DNA from: a virus
Lineage: Duplodnaviria; Caudoviricetes
Virus record (IMG/VR): IMGVR_UViG_3300026026_000125
Span: 1 to 59,205 of that record
Reading direction: 5' to 3' (one strand)
Length of the DNA stretch: 59,205 nucleotides
Part shown: in pieces, positions 2,969-54,870 of the stretch
Numbering within the stretch: position 1 is the stretch's first letter
Layout of the letters: every line of letters begins with the position of its first letter
Notes under the pieces: model-generated
Databases searched by the model: none
What the model saw: only the letters and a program-made list of their open reading frames with translations
What the model was told of the DNA's origin: nothing
Position numbers and translations under genes: made by a program

Positions 2969-3220
2969 ATGAAAATTTATATGTTTAAAAAAACTGATGT
3001 TTATAAATTATTACCGAATTTTAATTCATTCGATCCTTGTAATTGGAATGAATTAAAATCATTGCCTCTTGAAGTAAAAAAATTAATAAACATATCAAAA
3101 AGACATGATTTAGTCTTTACAGAATATAACTTTATGCTTAGTTTTAATTTAGAAGATAAAGAAGCAAATAATAAATATTATGTTATGTTTATTCCGAACC
3201 CAAAATTTAATATTAAATAA
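2969..3220 (+). CDS. Hypothetical protein
   Basis: 83-aa ORF; its stop is the TAA of the following TAAC box. Confidence 0.7.
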   Translation: MKIYMFKKTDVYKLLPNFNSFDPCNWNELKSLPLEVKKLINISKRHDLVFTEYNFMLSFNLEDKEANNKYYVMFIPNPKFNIK

Positions 3221-3356
3221 CGGTCGGTCATTTACGTCCGTTGGCTATTTGAAAAACAAAAGTTGAATTTAAAACAAAAAATAAATATGGAAACAAAAGT
3301 TGAAATTATAGATGAAGTAGCCAATAGCGTAAATGCCTTATTATCTACTGGCGATT
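3218..3356. repeat. attC-like hairpin site of the solitary cassette (degenerate)
   Basis: TAAC, arms CATTTACGTCCGTTGGCTA / TAGCCAATAGCGTAAATG, then ATTATCTACTGGCGATT, imperfectly complementary to AATCGCTTGCAGCTAAC at 3606-3622. Confidence 0.7.
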
Positions 3357-4499: not shown

Positions 4500-4931
4500 T
4501 CATACAAATATTTCATTTTTACCAGTTAATTTATATTCAATGTTTTTTAAGTCTTTTCGATAATTTATGTCAACGTCACTTATATTTGAAACAGTTGTAC
4601 ATGCCCATTTTACGGTAGCGTGGTCTTTTCCCCCAATATTTTCACCAATCCGAGCTAAAGAATATTTTGTTAAACGGCGTGAAAAAAACATAGCAATTTG
4701 TCTTGATTGAACAATTTCCTTTTTTTTAGTGATTATATCCAATTTTTCGATGTCTATATTAAAGTAATAGCAAACTACATTTTTTATACAATCTATTGAA
4801 ATTTCTTCTCCTATGTTGTTTTTTAACCACCATTTTACATACTCATGAACATCCTCAAAACAAATTCCATTTTCTTCAAATTCTGGATACTCATCAAATA
4901 TCTCTTTTGCTATTTCAAAATCTGTTTTCAT
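4500..4931 (-). CDS. DnaA C-terminal (domain IV) DNA-binding domain protein
   Basis: IVQSRQIAMFFSRRLTKYSLARIGENIGGKDHATV matches the DnaA domain IV signature; no AAA+ domain. Confidence 0.85.
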   Translation of the reverse strand: MKTDFEIAKEIFDEYPEFEENGICFEDVHEYVKWWLKNNIGEEISIDCIKNVVCYYFNIDIEKLDIITKKKEIVQSRQIAMFFSRRLTKYSLARIGENIGGKDHATVKWACTTVSNISDVDINYRKDLKNIEYKLTGKNEIFV

Positions 4932-4941
4932 ACTTATTGTT

Positions 4942-5097
4942 TTAAAATGGTAATTTAATTTTCATTTTATCAATTAAAGCACTTCGAATAATGCAATTAA
5001 AACTCATACCTGTTTTAAATTTATTGTCTTTCAAATATTTCCATTCATCATCTGAAAGACGAATTCTTAAAGTCTTGTATTTATTAAGTTTATCCAT
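4942..5097 (-). CDS. 51-aa ribbon-helix-helix-like protein at the end of array 1 (not in ORF track)
   Basis: MDKLNKYKTLRIRLSDDEWKYLKDNKFKTGMSFNCIIRSALIDKMKIKLPF: alternating strand TLRIRLS, two helices, IIRSAL. Confidence 0.7.
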   Translation of the reverse strand: MDKLNKYKTLRIRLSDDEWKYLKDNKFKTGMSFNCIIRSALIDKMKIKLPF

Positions 5098-5111
5098 AAA
5101 AGTGCCGTCAA

Positions 5112-5139
5112 AAGTTGCGTATATACATCGTTAGTTGCC
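5112..5139. other. Terminal half-site (attI-like) of array 1
   Basis: AAGTTGCGTATATAC-ATC-GTTAGTTGCC; 14/15 match to the motif ending array 2; no hairpin partner. Confidence 0.7.
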
Positions 5140-5142
5140 ATT

Positions 5143-5958
5143 TTAGGACACAGCTCCGATTATAGGTTCTGCATCAAAGAAAATAACATCTACTTTATTC
5201 TCAATTTTATTAAAAATAGGATATTCTATTTCTTTAACAACCGAACGTTCAATAATCAAATTAGGGTTCTTATGTGCTTTGTGCATCTTCGGTAATGTTT
5301 TTAATTCATCGGCACTAAAAGGCTTTGAGGTTTTCACACGCTTCACATAAGTACCTCGTTTTAATTTAGCTTCTAAGTCATTCCAGTTCACACCCTTTTC
5401 TATCATCATTTTATCTTGCAACTCGTTTGTTTTTAGCTTAAAACATTTTGCATGTCCAAATAATGAATCAGCTAACATTAAAATTGAGTTTCTTGTAGCA
5501 TCATTTTCACGCCACAATAATTGAACACAAGCATCGTGTAATGAAGGTACTTGGTAAATCCTACAATCAAATACAGCAGTTTTATTGTGTGTAGGTAGTA
5601 TTTCTTTACGTTTTTCATTAAAGAAATTCACACATTTTGCAGTAAGTTTTGAAAGTATCTTTTGCTTTTTACCATCATTATAAATGGAGCTTTTACGGTC
5701 ATCGGAATATAGTACCAAAGTTATTTCATCGCTTTGTGTATATCCAACAACTGCGTTAGTTTCTTGTACCAAAAACTTAGTAGTTTCGGTCATTAGTTCA
5801 GTTAATTTCCTATCAAATGGTCTTTCTAAACCTTTTGTCCAGTTGTGAAAGTTATTTCCATCTAATCGAATAATTACGGGCAATGTAGGTATCATTATTT
5901 CAGGTGAGAAATTTTTCTCAGTCCATTTACACCAGTCTCCCATTGTTTCAAAATCCAT
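5143..5958 (-). CDS. tRNA(His) guanylyltransferase (Thg1-like 3'-5' polymerase)
   Basis: IIRLDGNNFH, GYTQSDEITL, FDCR and WRENDATRNSI motifs; likely start MDFETMGD at 5958. Confidence 0.92.
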   Translation of the reverse strand: MDFETMGDWCKWTEKNFSPEIMIPTLPVIIRLDGNNFHNWTKGLERPFDRKLTELMTETTKFLVQETNAVVGYTQSDEITLVLYSDDRKSSIYNDGKKQKILSKLTAKCVNFFNEKRKEILPTHNKTAVFDCRIYQVPSLHDACVQLLWRENDATRNSILMLADSLFGHAKCFKLKTNELQDKMMIEKGVNWNDLEAKLKRGTYVKRVKTSKPFSADELKTLPKMHKAHKNPNLIIERSVVKEIEYPIFNKIENKVDVIFFDAEPIIGAVS

Positions 5959-6000
5959 ACTTTTATATTTTAAATTGTTAATAATTAGATGATTAAAAAC

Positions 6001-6134
6001 GGCAACTAACAACAGGTATAGCAAATAAAGGTGTTCGAGGTATGCAAACGTCCGTACTTCCTATGTTGTTCCGTGTAACTTGATAATTACTTCTTCTAAG
6101 TCCTTTACTTGCCATACCTGCGACCGTTAGGGGC
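6001..6134. repeat. attC-like hairpin site
   Basis: GGCAACTAAC, arms CAGGTATAGCAAATAAAGG / CCTTTACTTGCCATACCTG, GTTAGGGGC. Confidence 0.85.
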
Positions 6135-6414: not shown

Positions 6415-6551
6415 GCCCCTAACAATGTATATAGCAAATTGGGGGTTGTTTACAAGTTGCTACATTCGCACTCTTTATTTAGTTTCTGCAAGCTGATAGG
6501 TTCGTGCGTTCTATTCCCCAACTTGCCATATACTTAACATTACCGCCAATA
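6415..6551. repeat. attC-like hairpin site
   Basis: GCCCCTAAC, arms GTATATAGCAAATTGGGG / CCCCAACTTGCCATATAC, degenerate ATTACCGCC. Confidence 0.82.
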
Positions 6552-9768: not shown

Positions 9769-10557
9769 ATGCCAATATTTTATGACAATAAAGCCAATTT
9801 AGTAGTAAGTAAGGATGATCACTTTTACGAATCACTTAGTGAACCTGGTATTTATTATCCATCTGTTACAACAAAACTTGGTTCATATCCTAAAGGTTAT
9901 GGATTTGAAGAGTATCTTAAGGCGAATGGATTTAATTCTGAAATAATACTTGAAAGAGCTGGTAATTTGGGAAAAGAAGTTCATAATGCTATTGAACAAT
10001 GGCATAAAATAAAATCTATACGTCAAATAAGTGAAGATTTGACACATGAATTTTATTCATGGGATGCTTGGAAAATGTTTAATAAATATATGAATTTTTA
10101 TACAAGATTTAAACCCGAAAATCTTGTAAGCGAATTTAAAATTGTTAGTCCAAAATGGAAAACTGGTGGGACAATGGATGAAATAGATATGATTAATAAT
10201 CAAAGATGGTTAATTGATCATAAAACAGGTAATAATATTTATACTACTCATTGGATTCAAATAAGCGTTTATGCTAAAATTTGGACAGAATTAAATCCTC
10301 AATATCCAATAGACAAGATTGGCATTTTACATTTAAATGCAGATACAAAAACAGATGGAAAGGATGGCAAAATTCAGGGTATAGGATGGCAATTGAAAGA
10401 ACCTCCTAAAGATATTGATCACTACATAAAACTTTGGGACTATACATCTGCTTTATGGGATGAGGAAAATCCAAATGCAAAGCCACGAATGCTAGAATTT
10501 CCTATTGAATTTAAAGAAGAAAAACCAGTCATTCCAACAGGGTCAACTTTATTTTAA
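9769..10557 (+). CDS. PD-(D/E)XK exonuclease (phage recombination nuclease)
   Basis: YPSVTT, GKEVHNAIE, GGTMD, LIDHKTG and QISVY motifs. Confidence 0.85.
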   Translation: MPIFYDNKANLVVSKDDHFYESLSEPGIYYPSVTTKLGSYPKGYGFEEYLKANGFNSEIILERAGNLGKEVHNAIEQWHKIKSIRQISEDLTHEFYSWDAWKMFNKYMNFYTRFKPENLVSEFKIVSPKWKTGGTMDEIDMINNQRWLIDHKTGNNIYTTHWIQISVYAKIWTELNPQYPIDKIGILHLNADTKTDGKDGKIQGIGWQLKEPPKDIDHYIKLWDYTSALWDEENPNAKPRMLEFPIEFKEEKPVIPTGSTLF

Positions 10558-11181: not shown

Positions 11182-11377
11182 AATATGAAAAATATTAAAA
11201 TTAAATGTGATTTCATGCCACATTGTGGAAATTACAAAACCCTAAAATGTAAGACCTGTAAGTTTAATATGAGGTTTGAGTTGAAGGATAATTTTAAAAA
11301 TAAGTGAGAAACCTAATGAGACATTAATGGTCACAGCTATGTTTAGTACCGAATTATAAACTTAAAATAACAGAGCA

Positions 11378-11563: not shown

Positions 11564-11599
11564 ATATTACATTCAAAAACTTAAAATGTATAATCTCTT

Positions 11600-12317: not shown

Positions 12318-12689
12318 ATGTTTAAGGTACCAGAAAAATATAGGTTAATAACCGGTGAATTGGCTTCAGATAAATCATTTGGAAATAATGGCGTTTTTAT
12401 AATTCCTATGATGCATAATTTATATGCATATTGTATAGCTTCTGATGGTGAAGGATGGGAACATGTTTCTATTCATTTATCTACAAGAACTCATGATTTA
12501 AAACGCTCTCCTATATGGGAAGAAATGTGTCGTATAAAAGAATTATTTTGGAGCGATGATGATTATGCAATTCAATTTCATCCTAAAAAATCAGAATATA
12601 TAAATAATCATAAATATTGTTTGCATTTATGGAGACCTGTAAATATGGAAATTCCAAAACCTCATTATTCATTAATTGGGATAAAATGA
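12318..12689 (+). CDS. Conserved phage protein of unknown function
   Basis: GWEHVS...PIWEEMCRIKELFW...QFHP...YCLHLWRP pattern. Confidence 0.75.
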   Translation: MFKVPEKYRLITGELASDKSFGNNGVFIIPMMHNLYAYCIASDGEGWEHVSIHLSTRTHDLKRSPIWEEMCRIKELFWSDDDYAIQFHPKKSEYINNHKYCLHLWRPVNMEIPKPHYSLIGIK

Positions 12690-13135
12690 TAATAAATGAT
12701 CAAATAACAGCAAAACAAATTCAGCATTATTCCAAATATTCAACACCAGAACTTATATATAAAGCTGAGAGACATTTCAATAAATTTATTCGATTAAGAG
12801 ATAGGAATGGCGATTATTTTTATTGCCCTACATGCAAAAGTACAAAAAAAATATTAGGTGATAATTATCAAGCTTGTCATTTCTTCCCAGCTGGTCAATT
12901 TTCTTGGCATAAATTTAATGAAGATAATGTTTTTGGTGGTTGTAAGTCATGTAATTATTATAAACATGGAGCCGGATATAGTTTTGGATATTATGTAAAA
13001 GAAAAGATAGGAGAAGAAAGATACCTCAAATTAGAGTATTTGAACGGGTATTATCGTCAAAGAGGGTTTAAGTGGGATAGGATAGCATTAATTGAGATAA
13101 TTGAAAAATATAAGGCTAAAAATAAGAAATTTTAA
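12686..13135 (+). CDS. NinG/Rap-like Zn-binding nuclease
   Basis: FNKFIRLRD, CPTC, QACHF, FNEDNV and CKSCN motifs. Confidence 0.82.
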   Translation: MIINDQITAKQIQHYSKYSTPELIYKAERHFNKFIRLRDRNGDYFYCPTCKSTKKILGDNYQACHFFPAGQFSWHKFNEDNVFGGCKSCNYYKHGAGYSFGYYVKEKIGEERYLKLEYLNGYYRQRGFKWDRIALIEIIEKYKAKNKKF

Positions 13136-18093: not shown

Positions 18094-18330
18094 ATGGAAG
18101 AAAAAAAACTTATATGCGTACTGTGTGGGCAGGAATGGGGAGTACAAAACCCATTTACAAACCGATGTGAAAACGAAAAATGTACAGGGTTTTGTACGTG
18201 GGGTTATAAACAGATGAAGCCTGAAAGTTTTTTTATTGATGATAAATGTATTCATGGGTGGGAAAAATCAGATTATTGCGCAGAAAACAATATGTGTGAA
18301 AAATGCAAAACGGCGGGCAATGACCGATAA
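18094..18330 (+). CDS. Cys-rich hypothetical protein
   Basis: 78-aa ORF; its stop is the TAA of the first array-2 TAAC box. Confidence 0.6.
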   Translation: MEEKKLICVLCGQEWGVQNPFTNRCENEKCTGFCTWGYKQMKPESFFIDDKCIHGWEKSDYCAENNMCEKCKTAGNDR

Positions 18331-18461
18331 CGGTGGCCGTATGGTGGCGTACCGGATTTTGAAAAACTAAAAAATCAAGTTACAATGAACGAGAATAAAA
18401 GCACGGAACAATCGCAACTTACCGAACCCGGTATGCACTATACGGCTTGTTATGACCCGTG
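18328..18461. repeat. attC-like hairpin site
   Basis: Arms GCCGTATGGTGGCGTACCGG / CCGGTATGCACTATACGGC with one extrahelical base. Confidence 0.85.
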
Positions 18462-19302: not shown

Positions 19303-19524
19303 CGTTGACGGTTGTCGAAGTTGCCGACTAAGTAGCACAAAATTATCAATTTACTAAAAACTTAATAAAATGGCAGAAACTTTGAATACCCACGAAAACG
19401 GCATATGAAACGTGCGGGATTAGTAGCACTGCACTATCAAACTATAAAAATGTAAATTAAATGAGCGAACTTACAATAACAGATAAATCCCAAATTGCAT
19501 ATAGCGAGTGTTATACACAGGCAT
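19291..19524. repeat. Double-length fused attC-like site
   Basis: Two loop-like segments in tandem; outer arms do not pair with each other. Confidence 0.7.
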
Positions 19525-20570: not shown

Positions 20571-20716
20571 ATGCTTGTGTATAACGAATGGTGGTATGGT
20601 TAGTTGGGGATTAGATACCGACAACCTATCCACCGAGTAGAAACTTAATAAATATAAAGAATGATGAATAACGAACAAAAACCCCAATTAACTATACCAC
20701 GTGTTAGTGGCAGTAC
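20571..20716. repeat. attC-like hairpin site
   Basis: Arms GTGGTATGGTTAGTTGGGG / CCCCAATTAACTATACCAC. Confidence 0.88.
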
Positions 20717-21331: not shown

Positions 21332-21476
21332 GTATTGCCGCTAACGCTAAGTATATGGCAAGTTGGGGAATAGAAACCACTGCACTATAAAAATAATACT
21401 AACTTAATAAACAGAGATACAAATGAATACACTACAAAAACCCCAATTGCATAAACATAGTGTTAGGCAACGTAAG
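21332..21476. repeat. attC-like hairpin site (probably chimeric)
   Basis: GCCGCTAAC...TTGGGG / CCCCAA...GTTAGGC; outer parts of the arms pair poorly. Confidence 0.8.
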
Positions 21477-21764
21477 TTTTCTATTCTGAAAATACTCATA
21501 AGCCTTTATATCGAAAAAATACATCGCAAAGTTTATGATAACCAATATCGGCAGGATTACAAAATAACATGGAAAGATAAACCAATATTGAAATGGTACT
21601 CATTCCTATTTTGGTTGCTTCCTGATTTTAGAACTTATTTGAAACATTGGAAGCCAATTATAAAAAAGGCTTATAATATCAAAAAACTATCAATTATTAG
21701 ACAGGTAACATTTTGGAATATCCGAAAAGTAAATGTAGAACGCTATTCTTCTTATGTTGCCTAA
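21423..21764 (+). CDS. Cassette-borne hypothetical protein
   Basis: Starts in the hairpin loop and stops at the TAA of TAAC. Confidence 0.7.
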   Translation: MNTLQKPQLHKHSVRQRKFSILKILISLYIEKIHRKVYDNQYRQDYKITWKDKPILKWYSFLFWLLPDFRTYLKHWKPIIKKAYNIKKLSIIRQVTFWNIRKVNVERYSSYVA

Positions 21765-21862
21765 CGGCTGGCGGTATGAAGCGTACCGCATTGTAGAACG
21801 CTTCAAATTATTAACAAGCCTTTCTGCGGTATGCTTTATGACCGCTTGTTAGGCACAGTACT
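21751..21862. repeat. attC-like hairpin site
   Basis: Arms GCGGTATGAAGCGTACCGCA / TGCGGTATGCTTTATGACCGC. Confidence 0.88.
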
Positions 21863-21868
21863 TTTATT

Positions 21869-22093
21869 ATGGCTGAATTGAAAATAGAAAAACATAAATG
21901 GCAACCAAATTTCAAAGATGAAACATGGGTTATTGATAAGCGTAGGCAAGAAGAGTTTCAAATTACCTTAAAACAAGGTGAAGATATTGAAATTGAATTT
22001 ACATGGGATTATGGATATGGTGGGCGTGGGACTGAGCGAATGTATATCAATCCAAAAGTACTAAGGGAGCTACTCGATGAGTTGGGTCTTTAG
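21869..22093 (+). CDS. Cassette-borne hypothetical protein
   Basis: 74-aa ORF filling one cassette. Confidence 0.75.
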   Translation: MAELKIEKHKWQPNFKDETWVIDKRRQEEFQITLKQGEDIEIEFTWDYGYGGRGTERMYINPKVLRELLDELGL

Positions 22094-22125
22094 TATTGTG
22101 CCTAACAAGTGTATATATGCAACTT
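22092..22125. other. Terminal half-site (attI-like) of array 2
   Basis: GTGCCTAAC-AAGT-GTATATATGCAACTT; no hairpin partner. Confidence 0.7.
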
Positions 22126-22147: not shown

Positions 22148-22315
22148 ATGACTATAGTACAATCAATAAGAGTTAATGTAAATATCATTGAAAAACAACA
22201 ATGGTTAAAAGATCATAACATTAACTCCGATGCATTTATGAGAGTGGCATTTGAAGATAAATTTGAAAAAGAATATGGCAAAGTATTTAAATCTAAGCTT
22301 GAGGTTCCTTTTTGA
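22148..22315 (+). CDS. 55-aa ribbon-helix-helix-like protein at the end of array 2 (not in ORF track)
   Basis: MTIVQSIRVNVNIIEKQQWLKDHNINSDAFMRVAFEDKFEKEYGKVFKSKLEVPF. Confidence 0.65.
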   Translation: MTIVQSIRVNVNIIEKQQWLKDHNINSDAFMRVAFEDKFEKEYGKVFKSKLEVPF

Positions 22316-22423
22316 TAAATTTCTTTCTTATTTTAGAGCATGGACAAATAGATACGTCATATCTATTCTATCTCCCACATCTAAGACAATACCAATCACA
22401 TAATTTATTATCGTATCTGTAAT

Positions 22424-22870
22424 CTATAAATCTTTCCTGACCAATAATATTAATTTGTCTTGATTGCATATTAAATTTTTATTATTTATGACAGCAAAAG
22501 GAATAGCTAATAAAGGAGTTATAGATTTCAATGAAGTATCTTTTGAAATTATTTTAGCGTGAATATGAAGTTTCCTTATTTCATCTAAAAGTTTCCATTG
22601 TTGATCGCTTTTTTCATTTAAGGCATCTAATTTTACTGATATTATATCGATTGATGAATTATCTGCTTTATTTGTAAACTGTTGTTTCATTTGTTCTTTA
22701 TACTCATTAAATTCTGGCCTTTTAATAGTTTGAATGAGTTGAGAATTAACATTATTAATGAACTCTTTATTATCAGAACGTCTGTTTTGGAAAACAGTTA
22801 TTCCCAATGTCATCAATATAGTTAATATTGCTGTTATCAGAACTCCTAATCTACTCATTTTCGCATTCAT
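22424..22870 (-). CDS. Membrane-anchored coiled-coil protein (lysis module)
   Basis: One N-terminal TM segment followed by a helical region. Confidence 0.6.
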   Translation of the reverse strand: MNAKMSRLGVLITAILTILMTLGITVFQNRRSDNKEFINNVNSQLIQTIKRPEFNEYKEQMKQQFTNKADNSSIDIISVKLDALNEKSDQQWKLLDEIRKLHIHAKIISKDTSLKSITPLLAIPFAVINNKNLICNQDKLILLVRKDL

Positions 22871-26356: not shown

Positions 26357-27051
26357 TGTAAGTAATATATTGTTCTTTCTATTAACCCCCCCGTAAGCAA
26401 TCGAAACATAACTATATTAACTGCCCCCGCCGTATCATCATATTCAGAACTACCGGAAGCTTTTTTACAAGGGCCATAATTAATTGTATATGAATTTCCG
26501 GTACCTATTAATATATAGGTTATTGTTGATCCTGGCTTTGCCCCTGTATCAAATGAAATTGATACAATAGTACTTCCTGAAATTGTATCTTGTCTATGAA
26601 TACTTTTTGTTTTTGAAAATGTTAAAACTATTAAGTTTGTTATATTATTAGTTGTTGTATCAGCTATTTCATAATCATACAATACTTTCAAAGCATTTGT
26701 CAAATCATTTGTTGAAAGGTTTTTACCGGTAACCTTATCAACTTTCTGATCTAATTTCCAAAGTGGTGTAAGACCTGTAGATTTATTGGTAGTATCAATA
26801 TTACTACTTGCATTACCACCTACTTTAACCCATTTATTTTGAATAGAACTCCAATAAATTAAAGTATCGTTATAATTGATAATACTGGTTTTATTTCCAG
26901 TAATTATATTCGTTAACGATGTAGTTTCTGTTTTTACAAAAGTAGTATCATAAATTCTATCCAATTTATAAATATAAAGAGGATAGTGTGCCTGACAAAA
27001 TCCCAAGATTGGAATTATTAACAAAAATAGGATTATGAATATTTTTTTCAT
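26353..27051 (-). CDS. Tail-fibre-like protein with signal peptide
   Basis: KVDKVTGKNLSTND fibre motif; MKKIFIILFLLIIPILGFC-Q. Confidence 0.6.
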   Translation of the reverse strand: MKKIFIILFLLIIPILGFCQAHYPLYIYKLDRIYDTTFVKTETTSLTNIITGNKTSIINYNDTLIYWSSIQNKWVKVGGNASSNIDTTNKSTGLTPLWKLDQKVDKVTGKNLSTNDLTNALKVLYDYEIADTTTNNITNLIVLTFSKTKSIHRQDTISGSTIVSISFDTGAKPGSTITYILIGTGNSYTINYGPCKKASGSSEYDDTAGAVNIVMFRLLTGGLIERTIYYLQ

Positions 27052-53982: not shown

Positions 53983-54870
53983 TTATTCTATTTTTCCAGT
54001 CGCAGGATTAAACACTTTTCTTTTCTTTGTTTTAACGGGTGTTTCGATATTCGAATTCTCATCAGGTATTCCAAAGCCAGCCGAATCATTATGGGATATT
54101 TCGGTAGCCCTTATAGTCCTTTTATATCCTTTACTTAAAGCTTTGGCGATAATTACAGATTTTCTTCCTTCAACATCTTTCGGGTCAATTTGAGACAATT
54201 CGATATCCAGTTCTTTTTGAACTGAAGGGTCTGATTTTAAATCAGACAAAGCCGTGTTATACACATTGTCATAATTCGTTGGTGTATATTCATGTAGGCC
54301 CGTAGTCGTTTTGATGTATTTCATGCTTGGCGATGGGTGCCACTGTGCTTCTTTGTCCGGTTTATTAAGTTTTTGTTTTTTCAGGTCCATTTCCTGTTCC
54401 CACTGGGTTTGTTTTTGTTTTAATGATTCTTGTTCAGCCTTTCGTCTTCTCCATTCATTATATCCACCGGTCATTAAATTAAACATATCCCGGGCATATT
54501 GCTGTTGTTCCTGACCTGCCAGTTTTCTGTTTTTATCCATCTCGTCCCAATAAGCAAAATTATATTTTGAGGGGTCAGTATTTCTCATTTGATTACCGGC
54601 CAAGCCTCCGATTATTCCGGTAAGTGTTAAAAGTCCTGATCCTATGTTCTGCATCTTTGCATATTTGCCCAATTTCTCTTCCTTACTGGTGTCTACCGGT
54701 TGAGGTTTTAAATACTTATTGTACCATGTCAATGGAAGATACTCATTTGGATTATATTCGTCAGGAGTAGAGATAGATGTAGTATCTACAGGCTTTTTAA
54801 CTTCTTTGGTTGTCTCTGTTTTTGTTTTATAAACAGGATTACCGGCGTATATATCTTCAAGATCTGACAT
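53983..54870 (-). CDS. Internal virion/ejection protein
   Basis: Gly-rich hydrophobic segment plus Q/E coiled coil; position. Confidence 0.6.
   Translation of the reverse strand: MSDLEDIYAGNPVYKTKTETTKEVKKPVDTTSISTPDEYNPNEYLPLTWYNKYLKPQPVDTSKEEKLGKYAKMQNIGSGLLTLTGIIGGLAGNQMRNTDPSKYNFAYWDEMDKNRKLAGQEQQQYARDMFNLMTGGYNEWRRRKAEQESLKQKQTQWEQEMDLKKQKLNKPDKEAQWHPSPSMKYIKTTTGLHEYTPTNYDNVYNTALSDLKSDPSVQKELDIELSQIDPKDVEGRKSVIIAKALSKGYKRTIRATEISHNDSAGFGIPDENSNIETPVKTKKRKVFNPATGKIE

What the first reader, a model, noticed from the sequence alone, without database searches (positions are those of the whole stretch)
4942..5139. Both arrays end at one shared half-site next to a tiny RHH-like gene
Seen: on the gene-sense strand, array 1 ends TAAC-GAT-GTATATACGCAACTT and array 2 ends TAAC-AAGT-GTATATATGCAACTT (22103-22125), a 14/15 match, with no hairpin. 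Each is followed 14-22 nt later by an unannotated ORF of 51 or 55 aa (4942-5097, 22148-22315) with a strand-helix-helix pattern and C-terminal PF. Inference: this is the array platform, an attI-like site with a small DNA-binding protein where intI normally sits. The protein could recruit or direct a host integrase, or bind the GTATATAC palindrome as an autoregulator.
Basis: partly seen in the sequence, partly recalled or inferred. Interest (0 to 1): 0.88.

Follow-up and report, generated by a model that had tools for sequence, protein, structure and literature searches.

The report
Cassette docking site in a phage
Both rows of swappable genes in this phage end at the same short DNA docking site, which in related bacteria lies beside a recombinase gene, while the tiny genes next to it here are real but not a regular companion of the site.

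Summary
TAAC-N3/4-GTATATAYGCAACTT occurs exactly twice in the 59-kb phage record. Each copy lies right after the last cassette of one of two oppositely oriented hairpin-cassette arrays, has no hairpin partner, and is followed 14 or 22 nt later by a 51- or 55-codon ORF.

The attI-like reading is well supported. The same site closes arrays in other phage contigs, where the flank beyond it is constant and the cassette before it varies. Two near-identical contigs differ by one 370-nt cassette inserted exactly at TAAC. In a Runella MAG the exact motif lies 90 nt from the 3' end of a 538-aa Xer/IntI-like tyrosine recombinase gene. 7 of 12 orthologous recombinase loci carry a co-varying version of the site. 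The window has no recombinase.

The link to an RHH gene is only partly supported. P0001 is a real, probably RHH, family. P0002 is real but unrelated to it. Neither follows the site in any other locus examined. An unexplained regularity is that the first ORF behind the site ends in -PF in four lineages.

Phage CALINs are published (Qi et al. 2023). This scan had already noted the same system, and the same idea, on other DNA.

The parts
5112..5126 (-). Docking half-site 1, conserved arm GTATATACGCAACTT
   Evidence: The same 15-mer after TAAC closes arrays in other phages and sits beside a recombinase gene in the Runella MAG.
5127..5133 (-). TAAC crossover tetranucleotide (5133-5130) plus 3-nt spacer GAT (5129-5127)
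   Evidence: Similarity to G001 and to other Thg1 cassettes stops at TAAC.
5130..6010 (-). Last cassette of array 1: Thg1-like gene (about 5143-5958) between the GTTAGTTGCCGTT box (6010-5998) and the AATGGCAACTAAC box (5142-5130)
   Evidence: Window 5122-6031 is the only DNA shared with phage G001, at 91% identity.
6007..6129 (-). attC-like hairpin of array 1 (TAAC...GTTA)
6420..6545 (-). attC-like hairpin of array 1; its arm GTATATGGCAAGTTGGGG resembles the half-site
4942..5097 (-). P0001, 51 aa, probable ribbon-helix-helix protein ending KLPF; first gene behind half-site 1
   Evidence: Five homologues of 49-54 aa, all ending PF. Sub-threshold hits to RHH-type families.
4500..4931 (-). Neighbouring gene with a DnaA C-terminal HTH domain, co-oriented with P0001
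   Evidence: Bac_DnaA_C, 6.8e-21.
18328..18452 (+). attC-like hairpin of array 2
20582..20706 (+). attC-like hairpin of array 2
21342..21468 (+). attC-like hairpin of array 2
21762..21854 (+). attC-like hairpin of array 2 (GCCTAAC...GTTAGGC, 93 nt)
21848..22106 (+). Last cassette of array 2: 74-aa ORF (21869-22093) between GTTAGGCACAGTA and TATTGTGCCTAAC
22103..22125 (+). Docking half-site 2: TAAC, spacer AAGT, arm GTATATATGCAACTT
22148..22315 (+). P0002, 55 aa, small conserved protein of unknown fold ending VPF; first gene behind half-site 2
   Evidence: Homologues P0003 (98%) and P0004 (75%), PF kept. No Pfam hit at E <= 1.

Best explanation
The shared sequence is the fixed docking site (an attI analogue) of an integron-like cassette system of Bacteroidota and their phages. 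Cassettes have the form [hairpin - GTTA box - gene - box TAAC]. They are inserted or lost by site-specific recombination within the TAAC that abuts the arm GTATATAYGCAAC, so the cassette next to the site is the variable one. The enzyme is inferred to be a Xer/IntI-like tyrosine recombinase. Relatives encode it right beside the site. This 59-kb record (CheckV 76% complete) does not, so the phage presumably depends on a host copy or on a copy in the unsequenced part. As double-stranded DNA, the site (ATTG-N4-TAAC, short spacer, GTATATAYGCAAC) resembles the foot of the folded hairpin (TAAC, spacer, GTATATGGCAAG paired with its partner). That resemblance is how one enzyme could read both; this step is inference. 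The two small ORFs are real genes that occupy the place where relatives carry the recombinase gene. P0001 is probably a ribbon-helix-helix DNA binder. Their link to the site is positional in this phage and is not a conserved partnership. Shown: the motif and its position, the constant flank with a variable cassette, the insertion polymorphism, the adjacency to recombinase genes, and the conservation of the ORFs. Inferred: which enzyme acts, that single-stranded folding matters, and any role of the ORFs.
For: The motif occurs twice, each time at an array end. The pattern TAAC-N2-5-motif matched 7 IMG/VR loci, 60 metagenome loci and 15 genome loci. Of 82 matches that could be evaluated (window copies included), 17 have the 13-nt box partner upstream, against 2 for a reversed-box control. 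12 of those partners begin with GTTA, 2 in the window and 10 elsewhere. In family A (8 loci), every pair with enough sequence is 100% identical over 49-90 nt beyond the site and 25-48% identical over the 60 nt before it. L172 and L089 match at 100% and 99.75% on the two sides, apart from 370 nt (hairpin, 78-aa ORF and box-TAAC) inserted at TAAC. Thg1 cassettes in L003, L004, L005, L007 and L024 share TAAAATGGCAGGTAAC and diverge immediately after it. G001 shares only window 5122-6031. In the Runella MAG locus L216 a cassette is followed by TAAC-ATCT-GTATATACGCAACTT and, 90 nt on, by the stop of the convergent 538-aa recombinase P0016 (Phage_integrase 4.9e-43; best NCBIfam model is integron integrase TIGR02249 at 226 bits). 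7 of 12 full-length orthologue loci in that family carry [T/C]AAC-N3-5-arm-gap-arm' beyond the recombinase 3' end, with co-varying arms, against 5 of 240 shuffles. G001 has a 266-aa recombinase gene about 110 nt behind its last TAAC. No ORF of the window resembles P0016. All 7 hairpins fold better on the gene-sense strand. The half-sites have no partner arm.
Against: No recombination was observed; the evidence is comparative only. The recombinase is absent from the window, and the record is incomplete. In the bacterial loci the arm has an inverted partner a few bases on, which the phage sites lack, so the two kinds of site may not be equivalent. The spacer varies from 2 to 4 nt, which is unusual for a double-stranded tyrosine-recombinase core. 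5 of the 12 orthologue loci showed no site by my test, and 3 of 12 upstream-flank controls also scored. Many exact motif matches elsewhere are chance hits in coding DNA or belong to other repeat contexts, my families D, E and F. G001 and Polaribacter phage P12002L end their arrays with different sequences after TAAC. The strand bias of folding would equally fit an RNA structure.
Confidence: 0.72

Rival explanations
1. The motif is the promoter or operator of the small genes. P0001 and P0002 bind the GTATATAC palindrome and autoregulate, and the position at the array ends is secondary.
For: An ATG lies 14 and 22 nt after the motif. P0001 gives weak hits to RHH-type families. GTATATAC is a perfect 8-bp palindrome at site 1.
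Against: The same motif is conserved where no ORF follows: an intrinsic terminator comes directly after it in family A and in L118. No other half-site locus encodes a relative of either protein. The motif lies beside recombinase genes in bacteria. The sigma-70-type scan found nothing notable there, although Bacteroidota promoters are not covered by that scan. A dual use in this phage is not excluded.
Confidence: 0.12
2. The half-sites are dead remnants: the left arm of a last hairpin whose right arm was deleted. They would have no function, and their likeness would only reflect the common hairpin family.
For: The motif resembles hairpin arms (GTATATGGCAAGTTGGGG and, read as reverse complement, GTATATAGCAAATTGGGG). 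Two hairpins in opposite arrays share long identical arms.
Against: The 15-mer is kept exactly in several phage lineages with unrelated flanks and in a bacterial MAG. It marks the point of a clean cassette insertion polymorphism. Decay would not keep 14/15 identity between two sites whose neighbouring sequences are unalignable.
Confidence: 0.06
3. Cassettes move by homologous or microhomology-driven exchange between co-infecting phages through the conserved hairpin and box sequences, as proposed for the promoter-stem-loop modules of T4-type phages (recalled, not read here). No dedicated recombinase or docking site would be involved.
For: The window encodes a NinG/Rap-type junction nuclease (12617-13135) and an exonuclease (9769-10557) but no recombinase. 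Hairpin segments are the parts shared most with other metagenomes.
Against: At the L172/L089 junction only TAAC is shared, which is too short for homologous exchange. The same tetranucleotide bounds cassettes in unrelated phages. The site is linked to a tyrosine recombinase gene in G001 and in 7 of 12 bacterial loci.
Confidence: 0.1

Closest known systems
Clusters of attC sites lacking an integron-integrase (CALINs) in virulent phages, in particular Polaribacter phage P12002L (Qi et al. 2023, PMC9892861; abstract, section 3.4 and found passages read)
   Same: Both are arrays of one-gene cassettes separated by attC-type hairpins in a phage without an integrase, and the cargo is rich in DNA methyltransferases. 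P12002L uses the same box grammar (GTTAGGCACTTTT ... AATTGTGCCTAAC around its gp35 methyltransferase). The paper reports that IntI1 recombined five of six phage attC sites tested, including one of the two from P12002L.
   Different: In the passages I read, the paper does not describe a shared terminal docking site for these arrays or a Xer-like recombinase ('Xer' occurs 0 times). P12002L has a different sequence after its last TAAC.
Classical integron platform: intI, attI and attC-bounded cassettes
   Same: Both have a fixed site at one end of the array next to the recombinase gene, with the cassette nearest to it variable. Both have a crossover inside a GTT/AAC core and folded imperfect hairpins with a strand bias. 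The recombinase of relatives scores best against the integron-integrase model.
   Different: Here the genes point towards the site and each hairpin travels on the 5' side of its gene, a mirrored layout. The outer boxes pair over 13-15 nt rather than 7. The relatives' recombinase falls below the curated IntI cut-off (226 against 265 bits) and carries an extra N-terminal region of about 265 aa, or is a short 266-aa form. No recombinase gene is present in this phage record.
Xer recombination sites flanking mobile modules (dif and pdif modules of Acinetobacter plasmids; recalled, and seen only as the listing of PMC9771954)
   Same: Both involve Xer-type recombinases acting on short sites that bound small mobile gene modules.
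   Different: pdif sites are 28-bp double-stranded sites with fixed 6-bp spacers and no long hairpins. Here the sites are hairpins of about 90-130 nt plus one hairpin-less terminal site with a variable spacer.
Ribbon-helix-helix proteins (CopG/Arc/MetJ type; NikA-like relaxosome proteins, DUF6290)
   Same: P0001 matches in size (about 50 aa), in the pattern LRIRLS - DEWxYLK - G-x-S-Y-N-x-x-IR, and in its weak profile hits.
   Different: No hit reaches a curated cut-off. The fold was not confirmed (pLDDT 60, all-helical monomer model). The invariant C-terminal PF is not a feature I know from RHH families.

Membership tests
Integron (intI + attI + attC cassettes) | An integron-integrase gene (tyrosine recombinase with the IntI-specific extra segment) beside the array | tested here: not met
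   No ORF of the window resembles a tyrosine recombinase (phmmer with P0016 over all six frames; Pfam on 30 window ORFs). The relatives' enzyme P0016 scores 226 bits on TIGR02249, below the cut-off of 265, and matches it in two stretches.
Integron (intI + attI + attC cassettes) | attC sites: imperfect hairpins with outer RYYYAAC ... GTTRRRY boxes and strand-biased folding | tested here: inconclusive
   Seven TAAC...GTTA hairpins of 93-127 nt were found, and all fold better on one strand. Only 1 of the 7 (21759-21854) fits the full RYYYAAC...GTTRRRY pattern. The attC models of IntegronFinder and HattCI were not available.
Integron (intI + attI + attC cassettes) | A fixed attI at the integrase end where new cassettes enter, with the crossover in the GTT/AAC core | tested here: met
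   Constant flank and variable cassette in family A, and a 370-nt insertion polymorphism bounded by TAAC. The site lies next to the recombinase gene in L216 and in 7 of 12 orthologue loci. The evidence is comparative, not biochemical.
Integron (intI + attI + attC cassettes) | Cassette made of a promoterless ORF followed by its own attC, reading away from attI | tested here: not met
   Genes read towards the half-site. The inserted unit in L089 carries its hairpin 5' of the ORF. Start codons lie in or just after the hairpin loops.
CALIN (two or more attC sites, no integron-integrase nearby) | A cluster of attC-type sites without an integrase in the same replicon | tested here: met
   Two arrays (at least 2 and 4 hairpins) and no recombinase in the 59,205 bases. 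The caveat is that the record is 76% complete and attC identity rests on structure, not on the published models.
Ribbon-helix-helix superfamily (for P0001) | A significant profile match to an RHH family | tested here: inconclusive
   NikA-like 17.4 bits and DUF6290 16.0 bits, both against a cut-off of 27. 2 of 6 family members hit each of these, and single members hit VAPB_antitox and CopG_antitoxin at E 0.045-0.059. The best PDB profile hits are AvtR (E 0.34) and 2kke (E 0.49). In the Atlas, feature-neighbour clusters include clusters named CopG-family, DUF6290 and NikA-like at 0.91-0.92.
Ribbon-helix-helix superfamily (for P0001) | Strand-helix-helix fold forming an intertwined dimer | tested here: inconclusive
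   The single-sequence AlphaFold2 model has pLDDT 60 and three helices, with no strand. The dimer job gave no verdict and is listed under Tried and rejected only.
Ribbon-helix-helix superfamily (for P0002) | Any profile or fold evidence for RHH | tested here: not met
   No Pfam hit at E <= 1 and no PDB profile hit at E <= 10. hhalign against the P0001 family gives probability 0.7%. The model has pLDDT 61 and two helices. Atlas clusters carrying RHH families appear only at 0.89, which the tool rates as a lead.

The most novel reading that the evidence does not exclude
The small proteins encoded directly behind the docking site belong to three unrelated families: P0001-type RHH, P0002-type, and P0017/P0018-type. 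All end in an invariant C-terminal Pro-Phe. They could be adaptors that let an integrase-less phage use a host Xer/IntI-like recombinase. In this reading they would bind at or near the site and present the PF tail to the enzyme or to another host factor, so controlling when cassettes are captured or lost.
Probability: 0.1. Interest if true: 0.85.

Novelty: new variant of a known kind. Interest (0 to 1): 0.62.

Why it matters
Integron-type cassette arrays in phages have been in print since 2023. How integrase-less arrays gain cassettes is still open. Here the entry point of one widespread Bacteroidota and phage cassette system is pinned to a 23-nt site. A natural before-and-after pair supports it, and a candidate enzyme family is encoded next to the same site in bacterial genomes. 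That makes the system directly testable, by pairing a hairpin, the half-site and the recombinase in an attC x attI-type assay. It also gives a sequence handle for finding array ends and for guessing hosts. The cargo (methyltransferases, a Thg1-like enzyme, a radical-SAM enzyme) suggests that phages trade anti-defence genes through this site. The RHH part of the claim is weaker. It does raise a concrete question about the small PF-tailed proteins at this position.

Tried and rejected
**Searches that found nothing or little**
- Megablast of window 1-25000 against isolated phages: no match.
- tblastn of P0001 and of P0002 against isolated phages at E <= 1: no match.
- The search for related loci with P0001, P0002 and alignment A3 in IMG/VR: no relatives.
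- Word-indexed protein search: P0001 found only itself.
- The 15-mer alone in IMG/VR gave mostly chance hits in coding DNA. I then used the stricter pattern with TAAC.
- Motif search in G001-G004: none.

**Models and structure**
- AlphaFold2 models of P0001 and P0002 were of low confidence (pLDDT 60 and 61). I did not send them to fold search.
- Complex prediction with two copies of the P0001 family: no verdict (score 0.32, mark 0.42). I count it neither for nor against dimerisation.

**Sequencing runs**
- Read laying: run X1, which may be the source sample, covers the stretch. Runs X2, X4 and X8 mainly hold the hairpin segments.
- There is no cover over 22158-22600 in X2, X4 or X8. This is not evidence of absence.
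- The joints listed come from matches below 95% likeness, so I did not use them.

**Ideas considered and dropped**
- The two half-sites as ends of an invertible or inserted 17-kb segment. They are inverted repeats of each other, but other phages show single sites at array ends.
- A Xer dif-like 11-6-11 core. The arms and the spacing do not fit.
- IS200/IS605-type HUH transposition. No such gene was seen.
- An integron with the usual orientation. The conservation boundaries contradict it.

**Motif families left unexplained**
- Family D: about 20 metagenome loci with a preceding related direct repeat.
- Family F: GC-rich tandem repeats.

**Literature**
- Three full-text searches (listings only) showed no paper on a Xer-like recombinase or a docking site for these Bacteroidota and phage arrays. 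This is no proof that none exists.
- Supplements of PMC9892861 (CALIN boundaries) were closed.

Full report
**What the window is.** The window is a whole IMG/VR virus record of 59,205 bases, linear, with a CheckV completeness of 76%. It is a tailed phage. It encodes a portal protein, a terminase, a major-head-like protein, a 2449-aa protein, a DnaB-type helicase, an exonuclease, NinG/Rap, a dCMP deaminase, two DNA methyltransferases, a radical-SAM enzyme and a Thg1-like enzyme, plus one tRNA-Met. Its portal is 33% identical to those of Bacteroides phages, which points to a Bacteroidota host.

**The observation.**
- On the minus strand, array 1 ends ...AATGGCAACTAAC-GAT-GTATATACGCAACTT. TAAC is at 5133-5130 and the motif at 5126-5112.
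- On the plus strand, array 2 ends ...TATTGTGCCTAAC-AAGT-GTATATATGCAACTT. TAAC is at 22103-22106 and the motif at 22111-22125.
- The 15-mers match 14/15 and occur nowhere else in the window, even with two mismatches allowed.
- ORFs of 51 and 55 codons start 14 and 22 nt later, and both end in PF.
- Neither site has a partner arm within 450 nt. The best score is 16-17, against 22-29 for the seven true hairpins.

**The arrays.** Seven convincing TAAC...GTTA hairpins of 93-127 nt lie at 3218-3343, 6007-6129, 6420-6545, 18328-18452, 20582-20706, 21342-21468 and 21762-21854.
- Each gene unit begins with a GTTA box that is the reverse complement of the TAAC box at its own end.
- All seven hairpins fold more stably on the gene-sense strand, by 1.1-3.9 kcal/mol with DNA parameters. 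The arm mismatches are G opposite T on that strand.

**The cassettes are mobile.** The Thg1-like cassette recurs in 27 viral loci.
- In L003, L004, L005, L007 and L024 its 3' end is TAAAATGGCAGGTAAC, and the sequences diverge immediately afterwards.
- The 5' box GTTACCTGCCGTTTT is kept in L003, L007 and L024 (with one change in L007), while the inner arms differ between L003/L024 and L007. L004 and L005 have no upstream hairpin.
- Phage G001 shares with the window only positions 5122-6031, which is this one cassette, at 91% identity.

**What the half-site is.** I searched for TAAC-N2-5-GTATATAYGCAACTT in three collections.
- It matched 7 IMG/VR loci, 60 metagenome loci and 15 genome loci.
- Many matches are chance hits in coding DNA or belong to other repeat contexts.
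- Of 82 matches that could be evaluated, window copies included, 17 have a 13-nt box partner upstream (two or fewer mismatches). A reversed-box control gave 2. Twelve of the partners begin with GTTA, two in the window and ten elsewhere.
- The boxes themselves follow a pattern, ATTG-N4-TAAC and GTTA-N4-CAGT. This places a conserved G·T pair on the gene-sense strand.

**Family A behaves as an attI should.** Family A comprises L089, L155, L161, L164, L172, L187, L196 and L214.
- Every pair with enough sequence is 100% identical over 49-90 nt beyond the site and 25-48% identical, which is random level, over the 60 nt before it.
- The cassettes before the site differ, and most encode methyltransferases.
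- L172 and L089 are 100% and 99.75% identical on the two sides. They differ only in 370 nt present in L089: a hairpin, a 78-aa ORF and a box ending TAAC, inserted exactly between TAAC and the spacer of the half-site.
- Families B (L111, L169, L208) and C (L190, L213, L118, L180) show the same layout.

**Link to a recombinase.** In a Runella MAG (L216) one cassette is followed by TAAC-ATCT-GTATATACGCAACTT. Ninety nucleotides further lies the stop codon of a convergent 538-aa tyrosine recombinase, P0016.
- Its catalytic half matches Phage_integrase at 4.9e-43.
- Its best NCBIfam model is the integron integrase TIGR02249 at 226 bits, below the cut-off of 265. The XerA/integron-integrase model is passed at 221.9 bits against 220.
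- In 151 genomes of that family, 46 have a match at E <= 1e-60.
- Of the 12 loci with a full-length orthologue, 7 carry [T/C]AAC-N3-5-arm-gap-arm' just beyond the 3' end of the gene. The same test scored in 5 of 240 shuffles and in 3 of 12 upstream-flank controls.
- The arm co-varies between genomes: GTATATACGCAA, TAATAAACGAAA, AAATAAACGCAA, GTATAACCGCCA, CGATAGACGCCA and GGTTTACGCTAC.
- Phage G001 carries a 266-aa recombinase gene about 110 nt behind the TAAC of its last cassette, in the position where the window has P0001.
- No frame of the window resembles P0016.

**The small ORFs.**
- *P0001 is a real gene.* A full HMMER scan of 1.84 billion representatives found five homologues of 49-54 aa, 49-65% identical. 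They share LRIR, EW, G-x-S-x-N-x-x-IR and an invariant C-terminal PF.
- *Evidence for an RHH fold is consistent but below threshold.* The hits are NikA-like and DUF6290, AvtR and 2kke as best PDB profile hits at E 0.3-0.5, and Atlas feature-neighbour clusters whose automatic names include CopG family, DUF6290 and NikA-like, at 0.91-0.92.
- *P0002 has close homologues that keep the frame and the PF*. It has no family assignment.
- *The two families are not detectably related*.
- *Neither recurs at other half-sites.* None of the 214 loci held, which include the other phage half-site loci, encodes a relative of either. In family A and in L118 an intrinsic terminator follows the site.

**An unexplained regularity.** Where an ORF does follow the site closely, it ends in PF.
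- This holds for P0001, P0002, P0017 (family B) and P0018 (L213).
- P0017 and P0018 are 37% identical (E 1e-9) and have no Pfam hit.
- Only 4 of 456 frames of 40 aa or more in the window end in PF.
- The proline codon varies (CCA, CCT, CCG), so the constraint looks to be on the protein.
- L190 is a counter-example: its first ORF, of 256 aa, ends differently.

**Comparison with what is known.** Qi et al. 2023 (PMC9892861; abstract, section 3.4 and found passages read) report 17 CALINs in phages, including Polaribacter phage P12002L. They show that IntI1 recombines five of six phage attC sites tested.
- P12002L uses the same box grammar as the window, so the arrays here belong to a published kind.
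- My searches and reading did not turn up three things: the conserved hairpin-less docking site, the mirrored gene orientation, and the Xer/IntI-like enzyme beside the site.
- This scan had already noted the same system in many other genomes. It had also noted the same idea, an RHH gene where intI should be (e1-5731572). I treated those notes as leads only.

**Verdict.** The attI-like reading is well supported by comparative evidence. The partnership with an RHH protein is positional and specific to this phage as far as I could test. It is a new variant of a known kind.

Noticed in passing
window 4942-5097 (-), 22148-22315 (+); L111 66-290; L213 1710-1934 (-): The first ORF behind the docking site ends in Pro-Phe in four lineages, representing three unrelated small-protein families. 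All five remote homologues of P0001 also end in PF. Only 4 of 456 frames of 40 aa or more in the window do.
   Followed up: partly
L231, L233-L235, L240, L242, L243 (bacterial genomes of the Runella family): Just beyond the 3' end of the 538-aa recombinase gene lies [T/C]AAC-N3-5-arm-short gap-inverted arm. The arm sequence co-varies between genomes, and the phage sites lack the inverted arm.
   Followed up: partly
metagenome loci such as L157, L165, L192 (family D) and L156, L162, L182, L189, L205, L223 (family F): The same 15-mer occurs in two other repeat contexts. In one it follows a related direct repeat (CATATACGCGACTG...). The other is a GC-rich tandem of TACGYAACTTGCGTATA units. Their nature is unknown.
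   Followed up: no
window 11358-11367, 11577-11586, 19358-19367, 20641-20650 (+); 5082-5091, 26629-26638, 54363-54372 (-): AAACTTAAWA occurs 7 times against 2.5 expected (4 of 100 shuffles reach 7). It often lies 10-25 nt before a start codon and inside hairpin loops. It may be a phage promoter or leader signal.
   Followed up: no
window 5112-5133 and 22103-22125: The two half-sites are inverted repeats of each other and bracket a 17-kb segment that holds both arrays and the divergent early region between them. Joined together they would form a palindrome.
   Followed up: partly
L208 658-700 and L214 (last cassette): The same methyltransferase cassette end (GAGTATTGCCACTAAC) abuts the half-site in one phage family and a hairpin in another, so one cassette is seen in two array positions.
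   Followed up: no
window 5143-6024 (-) and 27 viral loci (L003-L029): The Thg1-like cassette is spread over very different viral contigs, from about 7 kb to 501 kb, at 61-94% protein identity.
   Followed up: partly
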